This document shows positions 3,037 through 63,955 of a stretch of DNA of 64,000 bases, piece by piece. The stretch's first letter is position 1, and each line of letters opens with the position of its first letter. The translations under genes and the position numbers were made by a program. The notes beneath the pieces were generated by a model that had not been told where the DNA came from, did no database searches, and saw only the letters and a program-made list of their open reading frames with translations. Source of the stretch: a virus (Duplodnaviria; Caudoviricetes); the IMG/VR virus record IMGVR_UViG_3300042291_000844, positions 96,001 through 160,000 of that record; one strand, given 5' to 3'.

Positions 3037-3660
3037 TTAAGCTATATAAGATACGGTCACAGGAATAGTTTGAGAACCACCTGTTTCGTTACCATATACT
3101 GTTATAGTTGTCTTAATAGTTTGTGTTGTATTTGGGTTAGGAATGAATGAGAACGTTAATCCTCTTTCTACTGCTGCAGTTGTTGTGATTTCATCGCCTA
3201 AGAATACCGGTATTGTACCCGTACCTGCTGCGATACCACTACCAACAATTGAACCTGCATTTTTATTTGCTAATACAATTGTATATCCTGACTGTCCGTT
3301 TCCACTTGGTGAGGTTGTTGGAGTTAAAGATACCTGACCACTTCTTTGGTTTACTGAAATTGAAGGAACACCAAATTCTACTTTAGGAATTTTAGTTGTA
3401 CCCTTTGGTAAAGTTACCAATTTGTATTTTAGAACTTGAGTTTCATCAGGAGATGCTTCAGTTACAGGAATCGCTCTGATTGCTGCATCATAATAAGCAG
3501 AACCCTTTGGGTGTGCTGGTTCATAAAGTGTGTAATCAATCTCATCATCACCTAATGCGAATTTAGTAATGTTAAGACCTTGCCCAGATGCTAATTTTTC
3601 TCTACCTTTCTTAGTAAGAATCGCATCAACTGTGATTTCGGAATTATCTAAGTATGCCAT
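3037..3660 (-). CDS. putative baseplate/tail-collar protein
   Basis: N-terminal AILTKKGREKLA...LNITKFALGD resembles the DUF3751/gpH N-terminus. Confidence 0.6.
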   Translation of the reverse strand: MAYLDNSEITVDAILTKKGREKLASGQGLNITKFALGDDEIDYTLYEPAHPKGSAYYDAAIRAIPVTEASPDETQVLKYKLVTLPKGTTKIPKVEFGVPSISVNQRSGQVSLTPTTSPSGNGQSGYTIVLANKNAGSIVGSGIAAGTGTIPVFLGDEITTTAAVERGLTFSFIPNPNTTQTIKTTITVYGNETGGSQTIPVTVSYIA

Positions 3661-3718
3661 AATTTTTGTATTTTCTTTTTTACTTTCGTATATAAATATA
3701 AGTATTTAATAATTTTCA

Positions 3719-6700
3719 TTAATCAACTACTAAAATTGGTTCTCCACTTCCTCTTCCTGTATCTGAAACTTTTAGTATATTCGGGTTAGTTGTGAATGTT
3801 TGAACCGGTGAACCACCTAAAATATTAGTTGTAGAGGTTTGTTTAGACCCATTAAAATAACTATTTTGTAATCCGGTTGATAAATCACCAGTATTTCTAT
3901 AATGGGTTGAGAAATAACCATTTAACGGAGTTACCTCTACAATATTACCACCAACTGTTGGAGTTGCACCATCCCAATCTAATATAGTAACTTTTGTTCT
4001 ATAAAAAGTAGTCGAAATTAATTCTGTTCCTAAACTTTTATCTAAAGCGTTTATGTTTTCAGGTATTTTTTTTGTATAACTTTCTTTTATTAAAAATACT
4101 TTATTTCTTTCTTTTATAAAATTACCCCAAACATCTCTATACGTTCTAATTACATTCCCATTAGAACCAAACAATCCAAATCCTGCAACCGATAAAGAAT
4201 TTTTATCTAATCCAACTTGAGTAAACTCAGTTTGGTCGTATTCACCTCGTATTGAACCTGTTATTGTAGCATCTATTGGTGCAAAAATACCACCCATTGT
4301 TTTGGTTGAATCAGTTGTAATTATTCCAAACACATTTGTAGTACTAAATGTATCTACTTCTCCATTATAAGAATTATTTGTTGCAACTAAATTTAAATCC
4401 CCTTGTGTTTGAATTTCAACGGAATATTGTGGGTTTGTTACATTTAAATCAATTGCGTTAGATGTAGAAATAAACGCATTTATATTTTGGTATGATGCAA
4501 ATTGATTTGTAGTTTCATTTGTATCAATAGTGACTTGATGTTGAATATTTACAGCAGTTGGTCTATTCCATTTAACTTTACTTCTTTCTAAAATATGTGG
4601 TTCAATTAATAAACCAGATGAAACCTTTGCCCTTGCAGGAACTAATGATTCTAATGTTTCAAAAAGTGATTTATCAATATATCTTACTAATTGAATATAT
4701 TCATGTGTATTTAAATCATATCTTTGGAAATAATAATTTCTTAAAGTAGTTAAATCTGAGTATGAATCGTTATATTCATCTGCAGGATTACCAATATAAT
4801 CATCTATATTAAATTCACCTAAAGAACGTAGAATATCCATATTCACTTCTTTCATAGGTGAGAAAAATAATCCCAATCTATCCGTATCTATTGGTGCTTG
4901 GTCATATGATTTTTTAGTTACTCTACTTTTATAGTTTAAATCGCCTGATAGGGTTTGTGTTTCAAAACGAAATTTATTTCCTACCGTCAATCCACTTGAA
5001 GGAACTTTTGCTGTTACAGTTCTTTCATATGGAATGTAATTATATGGATATGTCGTATTTGCAGTAAAATTAGAAGCAGTTGCAAAATTTGAGTACCCAT
5101 TATTGATAGAAACGTTTTTAATAGAACCAGATGGTACTGATGTAGAACCGGTAGTACTGATTGGATATTCAAAATCTAAACGGAATAATAAATCAACCGT
5201 CGATGCAGAAATATGTGAACCATCAATTGCATCAGGTAATAAAGTATGGTTATCAATACGAGATTCTGGTAATGGAGTTCTCCACAAACGGAATTCATCT
5301 AAAGCACCAGTTAATCCCTCACCGACATATAGTATAGAACCACTTTTCCAAGTAGTTGAACCAATTGGTAATGGGTCTGAAATTTTAATTACTTCATTTC
5401 GGATTCTTCCTTGAAATCCTTCTTTTAAATATAATTCAAACACTTCAGTAGTAGAACCAGTTCTTCTATTTAAAACAATATTTGTATATGCATCATTGTA
5501 GAATGGCATATAATCAGTAGATACTGATTGGGTTGAATTACTACCTGTAAATTTGAATTCTAATTTAGCAAGAGAACCCGTTCCTGGTACTAAATCTAAT
5601 TTCCATTTATCAGTTCTTAATAAACTTTGAGTAATACTACTTTGCAAAGTATTAATACTAAATTCAATTGCGTTAGGGAAATCAGTACCATTGGTATCGG
5701 AGTAATCTTTAAACGGAATTTGTAAGAATGAACCAGTTCCAAATTGTAAAGCACAGGTTCTATCATCAAACGTAAACGTTGTAGTTGCATCAGATGATGG
5801 GTCATTTGGCCCACCATATTCCATTATTGTTAACATGGATGATGGGACACCATAACAAGCCATTGCTGCACTTAATGCCCTTTTTGTACCCTTATGTTTT
5901 AATAGATATGGTAAGTTATTTAGTATTCGTCTCCATACTTGATGTTGACGAGATTTTCCACTCATTGATGATGAAGAAGACCCATCTGAATTCTTACCAA
6001 ATGCGTATTCCCATAGGTATTGTGATTGAACTCCCATATCGGCGTTCCAACCTAATGATTCTAACATATGATATATTAAATCATTACCAATACCATCTTC
6101 GTATTTGTGTTCTAATTTTTTAGATTGTGCAATTCCTTTTGTATATGACCATAGGGTATCAAAGTGTTGACCCATCATATTTAAAAATAAAACAAACTCA
6201 GCATTTTCAGCATCATTTGTAATATGTGCAGGAATATTATTTACTAATATATTTTTATTGTTGTAATCATATTGTTGTGCATCATCAATAATTCCACCAT
6301 ACCAATCAGTAACTTGTGAACTTGTTGGATTGTAATATGAATATGATGATGAATTAAAAAATGGATATGTTAACCCATTTGATGATGATGTAAATAAATA
6401 TTTTTCAAATCCATCAAATCCGGCTTTAACTTTATTTTTACTTTGAACGTGTTTTTGTAATTCTAACGATGATGTTACTGAACCAGATGCATATGATAAA
6501 CTACTTGATACAAAATTTATTTTATTATTATAAAATTCAATTAATTCAACTTTATATAAAAAGTTTTTAACTCTTTCTTCTGCTGATGAGTATTTTACAA
6601 AGTTAGACCACGCATAAGTTGAACCACTTTCATATTGAATATTTAAATTCTCTAATGAAAATTCACTTGAACTTACATATGAGTTAATTAAATCAGTAGA

Positions 6701-21094: not shown

Positions 21095-22810
21095 CTATTT
21101 TATTTTTTTCTTAACGATATAGTTGTTAAGAACTAACGTATCCATATCACAATCTAAAAACGTATCTATTGCATCTTTAGGGGTGTTTACAATGGTCTTA
21201 TCTTTAACATTGAATGATGTATTCAAAACGATTGGATACCCATTATCTTGTTCTAATTGCATAAGCAAGGAATATACTCTACGATGTTGTTTAAAATTTA
21301 AAGTTTGTATTCTTGCAGAACCATCTATATGTGTAATAGCAGGTAGATTTTTTATATGTTCCTCTTTTACTTGAACTACCTGATTCATATAAGGAACTAA
21401 TGGTTTGTAATCAAAGTATTTTAACCTGTCTTCCTCTTTTACAATCGGAGCGAATGGTCTAAATCCTTCTCTTTTTTTAATTACCTTATTTACCCTTGCT
21501 TTCATTTGAGGGTCTCGCGGGTTAGCAAATATAGAACGATTACCGAGTGCTCTTGAACCAAATTCCATTCTACCCTCGTACCAACCGATAACGTTACCAT
21601 TTGTAATTTCTCTAGAAATAGTTTTAACAATCTGCGAATGATTCTTAAATTCATACCATACTTCATTTTCATAGTTTTTTAATTCAGTTTCAATTTCATC
21701 ATTAGTATTAAACGTACCTAAATACGGATTTGTATTTGCAACTCTAACGGCAGATTCGTTATGGGTATAATAGTAATGTAATGCACACCCAATAGCAGAA
21801 CCTGCATCAGATGGAGCAGGTGGAATCCACAATTGCTTATAACCAGTATTTTTTAGAATCTTACCATTTGCAGTTCCGTTATATGCACAGCCACCACTTA
21901 GGCACAAATTATTTGTTGCCCTAATAGCAAACATTTTATTTAATAATCTAAAAAATAGAAATTCGTATTGATGTTGAATTGTTGCTGCTAAATCTTTATG
22001 TTCTTGTGTTAATTCATCCTCTGGTAATCTATTCGGAAGTTCAAACAACTCCGCTAATTTTTCATTAAACATTGAATTGTTTGAATAATCATATGTAAAA
22101 TAATTCATATTGATTTCAAACCCACCATCTTCCGTTAATTTATATAATTGCTTAAATTTATTTAAATACGTTTCTGACTTGCCATATGGTGCTAATCCCA
22201 TTACTTTATACTCACCTTCATTTGGTTTAAATCCTAAGAAAGCGGTCATTGCAGAGTATAACATTCCTAATGAATGTGGGAATTTAATATTTTGTAATTT
22301 TGTAATATTCTTACCTTCTGCAAATGCTAAAACAGTAGTTTCCCATTCACCCACCCCATCTACTGATAATATGGTTGCCCTTTCAAATGGAGATGTATAA
22401 TAAGAATATGCTATATGTGATAGATGATGGTCACCATATGCTAAGATTATATTTGGATTTGTAATCTCATATATTTTAGATTCAATTTCTTTGGCTTGTG
22501 CTTTATTTGAATCAATAATAGATTTTCGTTTAAAGAAATTAACCAATCCACCTCGTTTAGTAGATTCTTCAATTCTCTCTAATTTTAATTTAGGGTTTTC
22601 GTAAAAGGTAACAACTGATATATCATTACCTGTTATTTTATTATCCTTATACAACCAATTAATAGCATTAGTTGGAAACGTAGCATCGTGTTTTACTCCT
22701 GTAAAACGTTCTTCCTCCATTGCACCGATAACTACTCCATCTAATATTAATGCTGCTGAGGAATCGTGATAACCACATGCTATACCTAAAATATATTTTT
22801 TATTCATCAT
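21095..22810 (-). CDS. carbamoyltransferase (NodU/CmcH/TobZ family)
   Basis: YHDSSAA, EEERF, HHLSH, DGVGE, EGEYKVMGLAPYG, GPR-like FGSRALGNRS, LNTSFN. Confidence 0.95.
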   Translation of the reverse strand: MMNKKYILGIACGYHDSSAALILDGVVIGAMEEERFTGVKHDATFPTNAINWLYKDNKITGNDISVVTFYENPKLKLERIEESTKRGGLVNFFKRKSIIDSNKAQAKEIESKIYEITNPNIILAYGDHHLSHIAYSYYTSPFERATILSVDGVGEWETTVLAFAEGKNITKLQNIKFPHSLGMLYSAMTAFLGFKPNEGEYKVMGLAPYGKSETYLNKFKQLYKLTEDGGFEINMNYFTYDYSNNSMFNEKLAELFELPNRLPEDELTQEHKDLAATIQHQYEFLFFRLLNKMFAIRATNNLCLSGGCAYNGTANGKILKNTGYKQLWIPPAPSDAGSAIGCALHYYYTHNESAVRVANTNPYLGTFNTNDEIETELKNYENEVWYEFKNHSQIVKTISREITNGNVIGWYEGRMEFGSRALGNRSIFANPRDPQMKARVNKVIKKREGFRPFAPIVKEEDRLKYFDYKPLVPYMNQVVQVKEEHIKNLPAITHIDGSARIQTLNFKQHRRVYSLLMQLEQDNGYPIVLNTSFNVKDKTIVNTPKDAIDTFLDCDMDTLVLNNYIVKKKIK

Positions 22811-27828: not shown

Positions 27829-27860
27829 CAAAGATACAACATTTTTTTGATAAAACCAAA
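27829..27860 (-). promoter_or_regulatory. Bacteroidota housekeeping-sigma promoter
   Basis: TTTG-N20-TATCTTTG. Confidence 0.85.
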
Positions 27861-34147: not shown

Positions 34148-34179
34148 CAAATATACGAAATATATCTGATAATACCAAA
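34148..34179 (-). promoter_or_regulatory. Bacteroidota housekeeping-sigma promoter
   Basis: TTTG-N20-TATATTTG. Confidence 0.85.
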
Positions 34180-56854: not shown

Positions 56855-56886
56855 CAAATATACAAAAAAAACCTCACATTACCAAA
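56855..56886 (-). promoter_or_regulatory. Bacteroidota housekeeping-sigma promoter of the RNA-repair operon, overlapping a terminator-like hairpin (56864-56904)
   Basis: TTTG-N20-TATATTTG. Confidence 0.8.
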
Positions 56887-60278: not shown

Positions 60279-60296
60279 ATGTCAAAGAACCAATTG

Positions 60297-60368
60297 AGGG
60301 AAGGGAGAATTTCGAAATCTCGACCTGATGATTAACAGTCATCTGCTCTGCCTCTGAGCTACCATCCC
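60297..60368 (-). tRNA. tRNA-Asn (GTT)
   Basis: Cloverleaf. Confidence 0.9.
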
Positions 60369-60375
60369 ATAAACG

Positions 60376-60409
60376 AAAAAACCCTTAACTTTTTTATCAG
60401 TTAAGGGTT
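60376..60409 (-). terminator. intrinsic terminator immediately 5' of the tRNA array (candidate attenuator)
   Basis: AACCCTTAACT/AGTTAAGGGTT 11-bp stem then TTTTCGTTT; tRNA-Asn begins a few nt later. Confidence 0.75.
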
Positions 60410-60439
60410 CTTAAAATATTGTTATAAAATTTTTACATT

Positions 60440-60562
60440 CTATCCACGTTTTACATCCCTTAACTTACTTCTATCCTCAATCATATTGAAGACACGATTG
60501 CCACCCCAAGCACATTTCTGTGTCGGTAGATAACTAAGCGTATGTATTGTTAAAGTTGCCAT
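60440..60562 (-). CDS. 40-aa putative leader peptide MATLTIHTLSYLPTQKCAWGGNRVFNMIEDRSKLRDVKRG
   Basis: Translated by hand; TACTTATA motif 4 nt upstream; contains AAGTTAAGGG complementary to the terminator 5' arm. Confidence 0.65.
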   Translation of the reverse strand: MATLTIHTLSYLPTQKCAWGGNRVFNMIEDRSKLRDVKRG

Positions 60563-60621
60563 TGTGTATAAGTATATTAAAAACTAATTTATGTTTGTTT
60601 TTGTGTTAATAAAATAAAAAA

Positions 60622-60690
60622 AAGTAACTCATCTTCAATATGCACCATCCATGTCATGCACTGGTTGACAAAAGCCTCGATAAATTACTT
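60622..60690 (-). ncRNA. small closed RNA structure followed by T-tract
   Basis: 12-bp terminal helix AAGTAATTTATC/GATGAGTTACTT; internal TGCA/TGCA pairing. Confidence 0.45.
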
Positions 60691-60699
60691 AATATTTTT

Positions 60700-61585
60700 T
60701 AAAAAAAAATCTGGATGAGAATACTCCATCTTGTGAACCAGCTTTATAAGGGTTATTGGTTACCTTAATTTCCACTACCTTTTGAGTAGTACCGATTCAA
60801 TGTGGGTAAGTAATGCCTACCAATCATAAAGTTACAACCTACTCTCTTTTTACTCCGCCACTTCGAATCTGCCGACCCGATTCACACCTCGCGATGCTAG
60901 AAGTTTTTCGAAAGAATCACATTTACCTTGAGAGTATTTGTGGCAGTGAACGACTCACTACTATGTACACACCTTTCACTTGCAACTGGTAACCACTTTT
61001 TCTTTTATTTTTATTTGATTTTCACCATTGAAAGTAAAAGTTTTGGTTTGTAGAAGAATTCAAGTAGTGGATTACCACTAGCTCCGTTCCATTTTGAAGA
61101 ACGGAATACTATACTACTCGATACGATATCCCTATCGTCATATTTTAAGTCCACTTCATATCTAAACCTTTGGTAAGGTAAAGATAAGGATAATAACAAC
61201 ACCACTTGTACATCATCTTACCTTTCGATTTTAAGTAAACTTTCATATTGAATCACGCAATGATATGGAGAGATTAAGTCCGTACTTCTTGCAATAACTC
61301 TATGGATTATTCTTATTGGTGTCCCCACCTCAACTGAACTTCTACCTAGCCCAGTCATTAAACCATTTCACTACGGAGTTACCCTCACTAATCAGGTCTA
61401 ATGATATTCCACTTGCATACTCAAGCTCCATTCCTTTCGGTCTGAAACCGCAAATTAATTAACCAACTAATTCACTTTATCCTACTTTCGTAGTTTATTT
61501 AACCACCATATGCGGCGGGTATGTACTATGTACCACAAGGATACTATGTACAATATGTTTCGATAATTTAAAGAACTTTTTTTTG
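60700..61585 (-). ncRNA. large structured non-coding RNA, GOLLD-like candidate
   Basis: About 0.9 kb without a credible ORF, GC above genome background, many hairpins, own promoter (61592) and 3' hairpin plus T-tract, beside tRNAs. Confidence 0.55.
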
Positions 61586-61591
61586 TTAAGT

Positions 61592-61623
61592 CAAAGATAC
61601 GAAATCTTTTTCACTTTTCCAAA
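61592..61623 (-). promoter_or_regulatory. Bacteroidota housekeeping-sigma promoter
   Basis: TTTG-N20-TATCTTTG. Confidence 0.85.
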
Positions 61624-61697
61624 TTTATTTTAAACTTTTTTTTGTTATGTCTAATACCGAGTATCTTTCATCGCCTTTAAGTTTAGAACTAACTTTG

Positions 61698-61729
61698 TAA
61701 AGATACGAAAACATTTTCACATTTCCAAA
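61698..61729 (-). promoter_or_regulatory. Bacteroidota-type promoter (tandem copy)
   Basis: TTTG-N20-TATCTTTA; spacer nearly identical to the 62005 copy. Confidence 0.8.
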
Positions 61730-61801
61730 TCTTTTTTTAATTATTTTTTGTGATATTATATATAAGTATATAAAAATATACCAAACGTAAAATAATCATT
61801 G

Positions 61802-61873
61802 TAGCGGGTGAAGGATTCGAACCTCCGACCTATAGGTTATGAGCCTACCGAGCTACCACTGCTCTAACCCGCA
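61802..61873 (-). tRNA. initiator-type tRNA-fMet (CAT)
   Basis: 1:72 mismatch, TAGAGCAGTGGTAGCTCG D arm, CAT anticodon. Confidence 0.9.
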
Positions 61874-61896
61874 ATATAATTTTAAAGAACATAAAA

Positions 61897-61998
61897 CAAA
61901 GTAAGATAATGATATCCGGCGTTATAGTTTACCACTTATGGTTGGACTTCACACATTCGGTTTTATTAGATGTTGGCTTCAACCACTATCTTATTTTG
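61897..61998 (-). ncRNA. about 100-nt closed structured RNA at the transcription start
   Basis: 14 of 15 bp terminal helix CAAAATAAGATAGTG/CATTATCTTACTTTG; starts 7 nt after the -7 box. Confidence 0.45.
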
Positions 61999-62004
61999 TT
62001 AAGT

Positions 62005-62036
62005 CAAAGATACGAAAACATTTTCATATTTCCAAA
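62005..62036 (-). promoter_or_regulatory. Bacteroidota housekeeping-sigma promoter
   Basis: TTTG-N20-TATCTTTG. Confidence 0.85.
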
Positions 62037-62049
62037 TCTTTTTTAATAT

Positions 62050-62496
62050 TTATTTTACTTTGTAAGATAATCCCAATCCTAATGTAAAATCATCACCAAT
62101 TAAATTACCAATTCCCCATAAATTTATAACACTACTTGGTCTTAGTGGATTGTACATTATAAGAAAATTTGGTTTATTACCATTAAGTGTAGGTTGTAAT
62201 CCAAACCCAATAATCGCCTTATCCTCTTTTACTTGTCTAAGAACACCAAACTTCATATTATCAGATACATTTCCTGTTTTGGTATTAACTCCCGGAGGAA
62301 TTACAATTCCACCATTTTGTCCACCATATTCACCATACGGAAGTCCCGCATAAAATCCCCATCCTTTTTTCATAAATCCACCTGTAATATATCCATCAGA
62401 TGGTCCACCCTTGCGGGTAGCGGTTATAAACCACTCTTGCCCTTTTGCAGTAATACTTATTCCGAGTATTAAAGCCATCACTAATAATTTTTTCAT
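62050..62496 (-). CDS. secreted protein, possible small outer-membrane beta-barrel
   Basis: Signal peptide; alternating beta strands; C-terminal LGLGLSY. Confidence 0.6.
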   Translation of the reverse strand: MKKLLVMALILGISITAKGQEWFITATRKGGPSDGYITGGFMKKGWGFYAGLPYGEYGGQNGGIVIPPGVNTKTGNVSDNMKFGVLRQVKEDKAIIGFGLQPTLNGNKPNFLIMYNPLRPSSVINLWGIGNLIGDDFTLGLGLSYKVK

Positions 62497-63268: not shown

Positions 63269-63955
63269 TTATTTTTTATTCAAAGAACGTTTAATTAAAT
63301 TCTGAACCTTTTCATTTCTCAAATCAATATACAACATTATAGTTGCCCGATATTCATTTGAGTAATTATACACATTATGATAATGATATGAATTAAAATA
63401 ATATGCTTTACCTACTTCTAATCTTTTTCTAAATATATTCTTAAACCAATCGGGTCTATGAAATCTCTTCCACCATTTAAACTCTGCGGAATCTACTACA
63501 CAATATTCAAACTTTTCTGGTACTATAATTGGAATTTGAATTGTCAGTTCCCACTCCTCTTGCCCGTGTTCTAATACATGCGAGTGCCAAACTAAAGATT
63601 GTTTAGGTGCGATTCGCATCACCCTAGCTCTACTATCTAATTGGTTACCACTAATGTTTGCACATATCTCATACATATAAGGTACTATCGATTTCAATTC
63701 AGTTTTCTGAAAGTCGTATTGTTCCGTACCATCTTCGTACATATCTTTATACAAACTTCCATCGGAACTAATCAATGATATCCCACTCCATGCTTTACGA
63801 TACTTTCTTCGTACTTGCCAAAAGTTAGTTCTATAATCTTTGAATTTGTATTTGTTTTTTAACAACCCATATTCATCAATTAATTTATCTAAATCAATAT
63901 CAATGTCCAATTCTAAAAATGGAATACTTTTTAGTTGTTGTATAAGTTCATTCAT
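63269..63955 (-). CDS. Asp/Asn beta-hydroxylase-like 2OG-Fe(II) oxygenase (start moved to MNELIQQ)
   Basis: R.RVMRIAP...L.WH.H; Y.FNS..YH.V.N...E.R; the upstream ATG overlaps a tRNA. Confidence 0.75.
   Translation of the reverse strand: MNELIQQLKSIPFLELDIDIDLDKLIDEYGLLKNKYKFKDYRTNFWQVRRKYRKAWSGISLISSDGSLYKDMYEDGTEQYDFQKTELKSIVPYMYEICANISGNQLDSRARVMRIAPKQSLVWHSHVLEHGQEEWELTIQIPIIVPEKFEYCVVDSAEFKWWKRFHRPDWFKNIFRKRLEVGKAYYFNSYHYHNVYNYSNEYRATIMLYIDLRNEKVQNLIKRSLNKK

What the first reader, a model, noticed from the sequence alone, without database searches (positions are those of the whole stretch)
60700..61770. About 0.9 kb ornate non-coding RNA driven by stacked promoters
Seen: no credible ORF; many helices (for example TTCCGTTC/GGAACGGA, AGTGG/CCACT, GATAGG.ATATCG.ATC); a 3' hairpin plus T9; two host-type promoters (61592, 61698) and one late-type motif (61761) upstream. 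Known: GOLLD (about 800 nt) and ROOL RNAs occur in phages next to tRNA genes. Inference: a GOLLD-like or new giant RNA, strongly expressed across infection stages. RNase P consensus not found.
Basis: partly seen in the sequence, partly recalled or inferred. Interest (0 to 1): 0.7.

Follow-up and report, generated by a model that had tools for sequence, protein, structure and literature searches.

The report
Phage GOLLD RNA with rRNA-style leader
The gene-free stretch is a textbook copy of GOLLD, a known 800-base phage RNA that assembles into a hollow RNA cage of unknown function, so the find is real but ordinary; its promoters and leader copy those that Bacteroidota put before ribosomal RNA genes.

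Summary
Window 60712-61520 (minus strand) is a GOLLD RNA.

- **Family match.** Rfam RF02032 matches its whole 416-position model at 60712-61121, with 264.9 bits (cut-off 150) and E 2e-74.
- **5' half.** The remaining about 400 nt (61122-61518) is the variable 5' domain. About 40 full-length relatives exist in IMG/VR and in two 635-642 kb phages. In a 32-sequence alignment, 145 of 195 consensus pairs show compensatory changes, and the window keeps 188 of 195.
- **Closest solved relative.** Both domains resemble GOLLD env-38, which forms a 14-mer cage in cryo-EM.
- **Other readings.** There is no conserved ORF and no match to any other RNA family.
- **Setting.** The order is tmRNA, tRNA-Met, GOLLD, then a 22-tRNA array, all on one strand of a large phage.
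- **Expression signals.** Two stacked Bacteroidota-type promoters (TTTG-N20-TAnnTTTG) lie upstream, then a boxA word (GTTCTTTAAA), a covarying hairpin, the RNA, and U9. The boxA word precedes GOLLD in 29 of 31 relatives and occurs in Bacteroidota 16S leaders. This suggests rRNA-style, Nus-dependent transcription, which is untested.
- **Not supported.** The "late-type" motif, and expression across infection stages, which I could not test.

This scan had already reported GOLLD, and this boxA leader, on other DNA. Verdict: new member of a known kind.

The parts
60712..61520 (-). GOLLD RNA body, about 809 nt. It corresponds to the cryo-EM construct GOLLD env-38.
   Evidence: Rfam RF02032 covers the 3' half. 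nhmmer homology to about 40 phage loci spans RNA positions about 4/40 to 845/858. The printed start and end of env-38 align by eye with 61520 and 60712.
61122..61518 (-). GOLLD 5' domain. This is the family's variable half, not covered by the Rfam model.
   Evidence: There are 103 consensus pairs. 97.6% of cells are paired, against 37-41% when the 3' partners are slid by 1-3 columns. 69 pairs carry double changes, against 16-26 when slid. A P1-like hairpin at 61518-61503 covaries.
60712..61121 (-). GOLLD conserved 3' domain.
   Evidence: RF02032 model positions 1-416 of 416, 264.9 bits, E 2e-74. There are 90 consensus pairs, 97.2% of cells paired, and 74 pairs with double changes.
60995..61059 (-). 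A-rich variable linker with no tRNA inside. It is closed by a long-range helix, 61076-61070 with 60994-60988.
   Evidence: The linker is unpaired in the Rfam consensus. ARAGORN finds no tRNA here. The closing helix is paired in 32 of 32 sequences at all 7 positions, with covariation. It forms a pseudoknot with the outer helix 61121-61113/61068-61060, which also covaries.
60701..60709 (-). U9 tract two bases after the terminal hairpin (loop GUAUUCUCA at 60724-60716). Possible weak intrinsic terminator.
   Evidence: Read directly from the sequence. The loop is conserved in all 32 sequences. The terminator scan did not flag the site. Close relatives have a tRNA-like gene at this position instead.
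61522..61552 (-). Leader hairpin between boxA and the GOLLD body.
   Evidence: Present in the MFE fold. Both stem segments change in a compensatory way among the nearest relatives: UGUAC/GUACA, UGUAA/UUACA, UGCAC/GUGCA (rows window, L032, L018).
61567..61576 (-). boxA-like word GTTCTTTAAA, about 9-19 nt into the transcript predicted from promoter P1.
   Evidence: Exact match. The same word lies 24-116 nt upstream of GOLLD in 29 of 31 relatives, where 0.012 is expected by chance. It also occurs in Bacteroidota 16S leaders.
61592..61623 (-). Promoter P1: TTTG (-33), 20 nt, TATCTTTG (-7), the Bacteroidota type. The start site is predicted near 61585.
   Evidence: Exact consensus match. It is copy 1 of the 32-nt repeat. 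L032 and L018 have the same promoter at the same place.
61698..61729 (-). Promoter P2, 106 bp upstream of P1: TTTG, 20 nt, TATCTTTA (one mismatch in the -7 box).
   Evidence: Copy 2 of the repeat. Sequence read.
61801..61873 (-). tRNA-Met(CAT) immediately upstream, with its own boxA at 61881-61890 and promoter P3 at 62005-62036.
   Evidence: ARAGORN and Rfam. boxA. Promoter. GOLLD env-38 also lies downstream of a tRNA-Met.

Best explanation
This is the gene for a GOLLD RNA (Rfam RF02032) of a large, uncultured tailed phage whose host is probably in Bacteroidota.

**Shown.** It is an RNA of about 809 nt on the minus strand (61520 to 60712). It has the family's conserved 3' domain, a covarying 5' domain of the same type as the structurally solved GOLLD env-38, an A-rich linker, and no conserved ORF. 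It lies between tRNA-Met and a 22-tRNA array.

**Inferred about transcription.**
- Transcription starts near 61585 from a Bacteroidota-type promoter, with a near-duplicate promoter 106 bp further up.
- The first bases of the transcript carry the boxA word that Bacteroidota use in rRNA leaders. RNA polymerase is therefore probably converted by the host Nus factors into the termination-resistant form used for rRNA. That form lets a long untranslated RNA be completed and may help it fold (about 0.5).
- Transcription ends, at least partly, at the terminal hairpin plus U9.

**Inferred about the product.**
- By homology with env-38, which includes both small hairpin loops that form symmetric kissing contacts in that structure, the RNA self-assembles without protein into a hollow 14-subunit cage (about 0.7).
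- What the cage does is not known for any GOLLD. Given co-expression with a full tRNA set and a tmRNA, the likeliest area is the phage's takeover of translation (about 0.3).
For: - **Family match.** RF02032 over the full model, 264.9 bits against a cut-off of 150. No other family matches in 60300-62100 apart from tRNAs and one sub-threshold chance hit.
- **Relatives.** About 40 full-length relatives. The two huge phages also score as GOLLD, at 275 and 287 bits.
- **Covariation.** 195 consensus pairs, 145 with compensatory changes. Slid-partner controls. The window keeps 188 of 195 pairs.
- **Contact loops.** They are kept across all 32 sequences: a loop with self-complementary GC or CG (CGCAA, GUCGAA, CGCGAG), GGCA/GCGA, and GUAUUCUCA. 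Kretsch et al. report GC/CG switching in L21a.
- **Similarity to env-38.** The env-38 sequence printed in the paper's supplement shares both ends and long motifs with the window.
- **Published structure and setting.** 14-mer D7 cage, location near tRNA islands, and function unknown (PMC12286853). Stoichiometry depends on P21b and P11 elements (PMC12990946).
- **Promoters.**. All five minus-strand consensus hits in the window are intergenic and lie upstream of minus-strand genes.
- **boxA.**. In rRNA leaders of Bacteroidota, 13 of 27 carry exact GTTCTTT[GA]A, 18 of 27 a relaxed form, and 15 of 27 a TTTG-N-TAnnTTTG promoter.
- **Phage identity.** Baseplate wedge, helicase and endolysin families.
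Against: - No transcript data, so the start, the end, the abundance and any read-through are predictions.
- The U9 site fails a standard terminator scan.
- The window's boxA ends in AAA rather than the GAA of most rRNA leaders, and no binding or antitermination test exists.
- The second promoter has a mismatch in its -7 box.
- The host is inferred only from promoter and boxA types. No GOLLD was found in 151 sampled Bacteroidota genomes, although the tool warns that this search is weak.
- The comparison with env-38 was made by eye on printed sequence, not by a computed alignment.
- Cage formation is inferred, not shown.
Confidence: 0.93

Rival explanations
1. GOLLD is not a stand-alone unit. 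It is cut out of one long, rRNA-operon-like precursor running tmRNA, tRNA-Met, GOLLD, tRNA array. Its ends are made by RNases rather than by its own start and terminator. This concerns expression only and is compatible with the GOLLD identity.
For: - All RNA genes lie on one strand, and every ORF of 200 aa or more in the window is also on the minus strand.
- boxA words also precede tRNA-Met (61881-61890) and tmRNA (63279-63288). Antitermination would favour read-through.
- The U9 hairpin is weak.
- In L018, L032 and L022 a tRNA-like gene abuts the GOLLD 3' end, so RNase P would make that end.
- The order tmRNA, tRNA-Met, GOLLD, tRNAs is syntenic in L032, L018, L017 and L023; L006 keeps it without the tRNA-Met.
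Against: - GOLLD has two promoters of its own directly upstream, and they are conserved in close relatives.
- In the window the tRNA-like 3' neighbour has been replaced by U9.
- A further promoter-like region, leader and terminator lie before the tRNA array.
Confidence: 0.4
2. A new class of giant RNA that only resembles GOLLD.
For: The 5' half has no Rfam model, so by database search alone it is unassigned.
Against: - The 3' half matches the whole GOLLD model far above the cut-off.
- The 5' half shares long motifs and its start with GOLLD env-38.
Confidence: 0.01
3. A decayed, non-functional GOLLD remnant.
For: None specific. The nearest relatives are only 86% identical.
Against: - 188 of 195 consensus pairs are intact in the window.
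- All conserved loops are kept.
- The model match is full-length with no truncation.
- Promoter and boxA are intact.
Confidence: 0.03
4. The stretch encodes small proteins: the 64-aa minus-strand or the 59-aa plus-strand ORF.
For: Both ORFs exist. The 64-aa frame stays open in four close relatives.
Against: - In relatives the lengths differ by 1-2 nt, and stops appear in L006, L046 and L029.
- The plus-strand ORF is broken in most relatives.
- Substitutions follow base-pair compensation, not codon structure.
Confidence: 0.01

Closest known systems
GOLLD RNA env-38 (marine metagenome; cryo-EM 14-mer cage; Kretsch et al. 2025, PMC12286853)
   Same: - About 810-830 nt, with the same start and end motifs.
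- The same type of 5' domain and the same 3' domain.
- A similar A-rich linker.
- Both small hairpins whose loops make symmetric kissing contacts.
- The terminal loop GUAUUCUCA.
- Location just downstream of a tRNA-Met.
   Different: - It is a different sequence. The resemblance was judged by eye, so no identity figure was computed.
- The window's copy has a U9 tail, and its rRNA-like leader is visible. Nothing is known here about env-38's flanks.
- Cage formation is not shown for the window's RNA.
GOLLD RNAs of Lactobacillales and Mycobacterium (Rfam RF02032; Streptococcus agalactiae GOLLD forms mainly decamers; Mycolicibacterium copies carry a tRNA in the linker)
   Same: The conserved 3' domain, the setting in phage or prophage tRNA arrays, and the unknown function.
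   Different: - According to the review, the S. agalactiae RNA lacks P9, P11a-c and P21b. The window keeps an env-38-like set, judged from the two hairpins.
- The window has no tRNA in its linker.
ROOL RNA (the other phage cage-forming RNA near tRNA islands)
   Same: Large size, phage origin, tRNA neighbourhood, and formation of a cage.
   Different: Unrelated sequence and fold. No ROOL match anywhere in the window at gathering score, nor in 60300-62100 at E up to 1.
Bacterial rRNA operon control region (tandem promoters, leader boxA, Nus-factor antitermination complex) and phage lambda nut sites
   Same: - Stacked host-type promoters are followed within the leader by the boxA word and a hairpin.
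- The word is the one found 70-310 nt before 16S genes of Bacteroidota, some of which also have two or three stacked TTTG-N-TAnnTTTG promoters.
   Different: - It drives a phage non-coding RNA, not rRNA.
- In the window the hairpin follows boxA, as in lambda nut, rather than preceding it.
- Function in antitermination is untested.

Membership tests
GOLLD RNA (Rfam RF02032) | Match to the curated covariance model of the conserved 3' domain at or above the gathering score. | tested here: met
   264.9 bits against 150, E 2e-74, model positions 1-416 of 416, not truncated.
GOLLD RNA (Rfam RF02032) | Two-domain RNA of about 800 nt: a structured but less conserved 5' domain joined to the 3' domain through a variable linker. 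| tested here: met
   The 5' domain 61518-61122 has 103 covarying consensus pairs. The linker is 61059-60995. Total length is about 809 nt. The 5' motifs are shared with env-38.
GOLLD RNA (Rfam RF02032) | Non-coding: no conserved reading frame. | tested here: met
GOLLD RNA (Rfam RF02032) | Encoded in a phage or prophage, typically in or beside a tRNA array. | tested here: met
   Phage structural, replication and lysis genes. tRNA-Met lies upstream, a 22-tRNA array downstream and a tmRNA nearby. The relatives show the same setting.
GOLLD RNA (Rfam RF02032) | Loops that make inter-subunit contacts in the solved cage: a self-complementary GC/CG dinucleotide in L21a, a conserved L21b, and a conserved terminal loop. 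| tested here: met
   The window's loops are CGCGAG, GGCA and GUAUUCUCA. Across the 32 sequences the first loop switches between GC and CG forms, as reported. Assigning these loops to the published P-numbers is my inference.
GOLLD RNA (Rfam RF02032) | Protein-free assembly into a closed homo-oligomeric cage (14-mer for env-38). | not testable with these tools
   Needs in-vitro transcription with mass photometry or cryo-EM.
GOLLD RNA (Rfam RF02032) | Expression rising during phage lytic growth. | not testable with these tools
   No transcript data are available for this uncultured phage.
ROOL RNA | Match to the Rfam ROOL model. | tested here: not met
   No match in the window at gathering score, nor in 60300-62100 at E up to 1.
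rRNA-type boxA antitermination leader | boxA consensus word in the transcribed leader, downstream of a host promoter and upstream of a long untranslated RNA. | tested here: met
   GTTCTTTAAA at 61576-61567, about 16 nt after the -7 box. Present in 29 of 31 relatives.
rRNA-type boxA antitermination leader | The same word is used in rRNA leaders of the presumed host phylum. | tested here: met
   Exact in 13 of 27 and relaxed in 18 of 27 Bacteroidota 16S leaders of at least 250 nt, for example AAGTTCTTTGAACATATTG at -111. The host itself is unknown.
rRNA-type boxA antitermination leader | Binding of NusB/NusE and termination-resistant transcription. | not testable with these tools
   Needs binding assays and reporter or mutant tests.

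The most novel reading that the evidence does not exclude
The phage expresses GOLLD, together with its tRNA-Met and tmRNA, through a copy of the host's rRNA-operon control region: stacked rRNA-type promoters followed by boxA. The host's Nus antitermination complex, which also chaperones rRNA folding, would then be borrowed to complete and fold an 800-nt RNA that must assemble into a 14-subunit cage. GOLLD output would also be tied to the same growth-rate control as ribosome synthesis. No paper in the held library links GOLLD with boxA. The original GOLLD papers could not be read, and this scan has already reported the same leader on other phage DNA.
Probability: 0.45. Interest if true: 0.45.

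Novelty: new member of a known kind. Interest (0 to 1): 0.3.

Why it matters
GOLLD is one of the largest bacterial and phage non-coding RNAs. It has a solved cage structure and still no known function.

This copy adds little on its own. It is a clean, full-length member, close to the solved env-38 RNA, in a large phage that also carries a complete tRNA set and a tmRNA.

The useful part is the family-wide context gathered here:
- About 40 full-length relatives, which give strong covariation for the 5' domain.
- A conserved rRNA-like promoter-boxA leader. It suggests how such an RNA is made in quantity without being terminated, and it offers simple tests: boxA mutants, and Nus dependence in a Flavobacterium or Bacteroides model.

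Tried and rejected
- **Own genome.** It is not held. The nearest record, G001 (a 46.7 kb fragment), has no GOLLD.
- **Scan of 185,579 species genomes with the 16-mer GAGGGTAACTCCGTAG.** It gave 62 hits, about what chance predicts. Only L069 is a GOLLD: a 5.9 kb contig binned as Saccharibacteria, probably a stray phage contig. This gave no host information. Ten of the 52 IMG/VR hits were also chance matches.
- **RF02032 over 151 sampled Bacteroidota genomes.** Nothing was found, and the tool itself says the result is uninformative.
- **Plain count of GTTCTTTGAAA in three Bacteroidota genomes.** No better than the reversed control and not near 16S genes. The test only worked once anchored on 16S 5' ends.
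- **'Late-type' motif.** No enrichment.
Rejected in favour of two covarying long-range helices.
- **Sigma-70 consensus scan.** 9 sites against 8.5 expected, so it is uninformative for this organism.
- **Papers.** Weinberg 2009 and Morgado 2020 are not held, so I cannot say whether they mention the leader.
- **Alignment with env-38.** Not computed, because the sequence exists only as printed text.

Full report
**What is there.** The stretch 60700-61770 holds no ORF longer than 64 aa. On the minus strand it folds far better than shuffled sequence: -231.9 kcal/mol, z = -5.8.

A scan of the whole window against Rfam 15 gives one large hit here. GOLLD (RF02032) matches at 60712-61121 on the minus strand, with 264.9 bits against a gathering score of 150, E 2e-74. 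All 416 model positions are matched with no truncation. A permissive re-scan of 60300-62100 finds nothing else except tRNAs and one sub-threshold chance hit. There is no ROOL, no group I or II intron and no RNase P. The Rfam model covers only the conserved 3' half of GOLLD, so the other half had to be examined separately.

**The 5' half and the extent of the RNA.** BLAST against phage records found two relatives, the unannotated 642 kb and 635 kb huge phages LR756502 and LR745206. Homology runs from about 61516 to 60771, well into the 5' half. Both relatives also score as GOLLD, at 275 and 287 bits.

A 16-mer conserved in the 5' half, GAGGGTAACTCCGTAG, pulled 52 IMG/VR loci. nhmmer with the window's RNA showed that 42 of these 52 loci, and both huge phages, are homologous. 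About 40 loci are homologous over the full length, covering RNA positions about 4-50 to about 845-858, where position 1 is 61560.

I built a non-redundant 32-sequence alignment (59-86% identical to the window). Its RNAalifold consensus has 195 pairs, of which 145 show compensatory double changes.

| Domain | Consensus pairs | Cells paired | Cells paired, partners slid 1-3 columns | Pairs with double changes | Same, slid |
|---|---|---|---|---|---|
| 5' | 103 | 97.6% | 37-41% | 69 | 16-26 |
| 3' | 90 | 97.2% | 36-45% | 74 | 17-35 |

The structure was derived from the same alignment, so part of the margin arises by construction, but the size of the effect is far beyond that. The window keeps 188 of the 195 pairs.

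Two more covarying elements lie outside the nested consensus:
- A P1-like hairpin at 61518-61503.
- A pseudoknot. The outer helix 61121-61113/61068-61060 and a helix that closes the A-rich linker (61076-61070 with 60994-60988) are each paired in 32 of 32 sequences at 8 or more positions (the outer helix drops to 31 of 32 at one).

The other two named helices are real.

**Relation to the solved GOLLD.** Kretsch et al. (PMC12286853) solved GOLLD env-38. It is 833 nt and was found downstream of a tRNA-Met in a marine metagenome. It forms a 14-mer cage with D7 symmetry. Its 5' and 3' regions form separate domains, and a disordered linker points inward.

The construct's sequence is printed in their supplement. 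Its first bases (ATGGCCGCTATGGTCG...AAATAAATACGAAAGTAGGATAAAGTG) and its last bases (...GGTGTATTCTCAGCCT) line up by eye with 61520 and 60712 of the window. Long internal motifs of both domains, and even of the linker, recur. I could not compute an alignment because that sequence exists only as printed text.

The two small hairpins of the 3' domain carry loops with a self-complementary GC or CG:
- First loop: CGCGAG in the window. Across relatives it is CGCAA in 20, GUCGAA in 4, CGCGAG in 3, UGCGAG in 3 and CGGCAG in 2.
- Second loop: GGCA in the window; GGCA, GCGA or GCA across relatives.

The terminal loop GUAUUCUCA is nearly invariant. This fits the GC/CG switching that the paper reports for the symmetric kissing loop L21a and the conservation it reports for L21b. 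A 2026 review notes that GOLLDs lacking P21b and the P11 elements assemble as decamers rather than 14-mers. The window has the env-38-like set, so a 14-mer is the better guess. This is inference only.

**Setting.** The window is phage DNA. It encodes baseplate wedge, DNA helicase and endolysin families, and every ORF of 200 aa or more is on the minus strand.

Reading along the minus strand, the order is:
1. tmRNA, 63266-62891
2. tRNA-Met, 61873-61801
3. GOLLD
4. a 22-tRNA array, 60368-56908

The same order recurs in L032, L018, L017 and L023; L006 keeps it without the tRNA-Met between tmRNA and GOLLD. Nearly all relatives have tRNAs or a tmRNA within a few kb. This is the published context for GOLLD. 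The linker holds no tRNA.

**How it is probably expressed.** A 32-nt repeat occurs three times in the window and never in shuffles. Read on the minus strand it is TTTG, 20 nt, TATCTTTG. From my own knowledge of the literature, this is the -33/-7 promoter consensus described for Bacteroides and Flavobacterium.

The three copies are:
- P1, 61623-61592, an exact match.
- P2, 61729-61698, 106 bp upstream, with TATCTTTA in the -7 box.
- P3, 62036-62005, an exact match, ahead of tRNA-Met.

The consensus occurs 10 times in the window against 2.75 expected. All five minus-strand hits are intergenic and lie directly upstream of minus-strand genes.

About 16 nt after P1's -7 box comes GTTCTTTAAA (61576-61567). 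Exact copies also sit just before tRNA-Met (61890-61881) and the tmRNA (63288-63279).

In the relatives, GTTCTTT[GA]A lies 24-116 nt upstream of the GOLLD body in 29 of 31 loci, where 0.012 per locus is expected. 65 of the 69 occurrences in those loci are on the GOLLD strand. L020 has GCTCTTTGAA instead. Many relatives also have a TTTG-N-TAnnTTTG promoter just upstream.

The word resembles rRNA-operon boxA: GCTCTTTAACAA in E. coli and GTTCTTTGAAAA in Bacillus, quoted from my own knowledge. To test this against the presumed host phylum, I anchored on 16S 5' ends in sampled Bacteroidota genomes. Of 27 leaders of at least 250 nt:
- 13 carry exact GTTCTTT[GA]A, 70-310 nt before the 16S gene.
- 18 carry it or GTTCATTGA.
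- 15 have at least one TTTG-N-TAnnTTTG promoter.

One leader (L133) has three stacked promoters of the form TTTGGAA...TATCTTTG followed by AAGTTCTTTGAACATATTG.

The GOLLD leader is therefore built like a Bacteroidota rRNA leader. The likely consequence is Nus-factor-dependent, Rho-resistant transcription of a long untranslated RNA. This is an inference, and no binding or activity data exist.

After boxA comes a hairpin (61552-61522) whose two stem segments change in a compensatory way among the nearest relatives.

At the 3' end, the terminal hairpin is followed by GA and U9 (60709-60701). The stem is too weak for the terminator scan to flag. Many relatives also have a U-rich tail. In L018, L032 and L022 a tRNA-like gene abuts the GOLLD end instead, so RNase P would make that end there. 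The window has lost that element. Read-through into the tRNA array therefore remains a live possibility.

**What did not hold.**
- The 'late-type motif' at 61761 has one other exact copy (60565-60579) and no enrichment.
- Expression 'across infection stages' cannot be assessed.
- Host identity rests on promoter and boxA type only. Scans of bacterial genomes gave no prophage copy.

**Comparison and novelty.** This is a member of a family described in 2009, modelled in Rfam and solved by cryo-EM in 2025. It sits in the family's classic habitat and context. It is a new member of a known kind.

No paper in the held library links GOLLD with boxA. However, the original GOLLD papers are not held. Earlier reports of this same scan describe the same 'rRNA-style boxA leader before phage GOLLD' on other phage DNA. 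Those are unchecked AI notes that agree with what I tested here. A first-reader note on this genome had already flagged boxA-like elements and served as a lead.

The function of GOLLD remains unknown here as everywhere.

Noticed in passing
window 61881-61890(-), 63279-63288(-), 60281-60290(-): Exact boxA words (GTTCTTTAAA, GTTCTTTGAA) lie directly before tRNA-Met and before the tmRNA. A one-mismatch copy (GTTCTTTGAC) lies between tRNA-Asn and tRNA-Gly. The whole stable-RNA island looks organised like an rRNA operon.
   Followed up: partly
window 61755-61776 and 60561-60582 (minus strand): A 22-nt direct repeat (core TATATACTTATA) sits just after tRNA-Met and again just before the start codon of the 40-codon ORF that leads the tRNA array. 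There are only two exact copies and no enrichment, so its meaning is unknown.
   Followed up: partly
window 61655-61675 (minus strand GGCGATGAAAGATACTCGGTA); L006 about 30 nt upstream of its boxA: A 21-nt element lies between promoters P2 and P1 and is almost identical in L006. There it directly precedes boxA and no P1-like promoter intervenes. This suggests that P1 arose in the window's lineage by a 106-bp duplication. It can form a 5-bp hairpin.
   Followed up: no
L018:4635-4707, L032 about 4280-4350(-), L022:676-751(-), L046:7566-7637(-), L029:3109-3179(-), L001:3836-3909: In several relatives a tRNA or tRNA-like gene starts within about 10 nt of the GOLLD 3' end. ARAGORN calls several of these with abnormal anticodon loops. 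The window lacks this neighbour.
   Followed up: partly
L001 (LR756502, 642 kb) 3420-3826; L002 (LR745206, 635 kb) 3439-3844: Two of the largest known phage genomes, deposited without annotation, carry full GOLLD RNAs of the same 5'-domain type beside tRNA genes.
   Followed up: partly
L069 (contig CAYTMO010000047.1, 5.9 kb, binned as Candidatus Saccharibacteria) 4297-5152: This contig holds a full GOLLD of this phage clade. It is probably a phage contig placed in the wrong bin.
   Followed up: no
window 27829-27860(-), 34148-34179(-), 56855-56886(-): Three further exact Bacteroidota-type promoters (TTTGG...GTATnTTTG) lie in intergenic gaps directly upstream of minus-strand protein genes. They are useful for mapping the phage's host-polymerase-dependent genes.
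   Followed up: no
window 21095-22810(-): A 571-aa Nol-like carbamoyltransferase (PHROG 1601, E 1e-113) is encoded among the phage genes.
   Followed up: no
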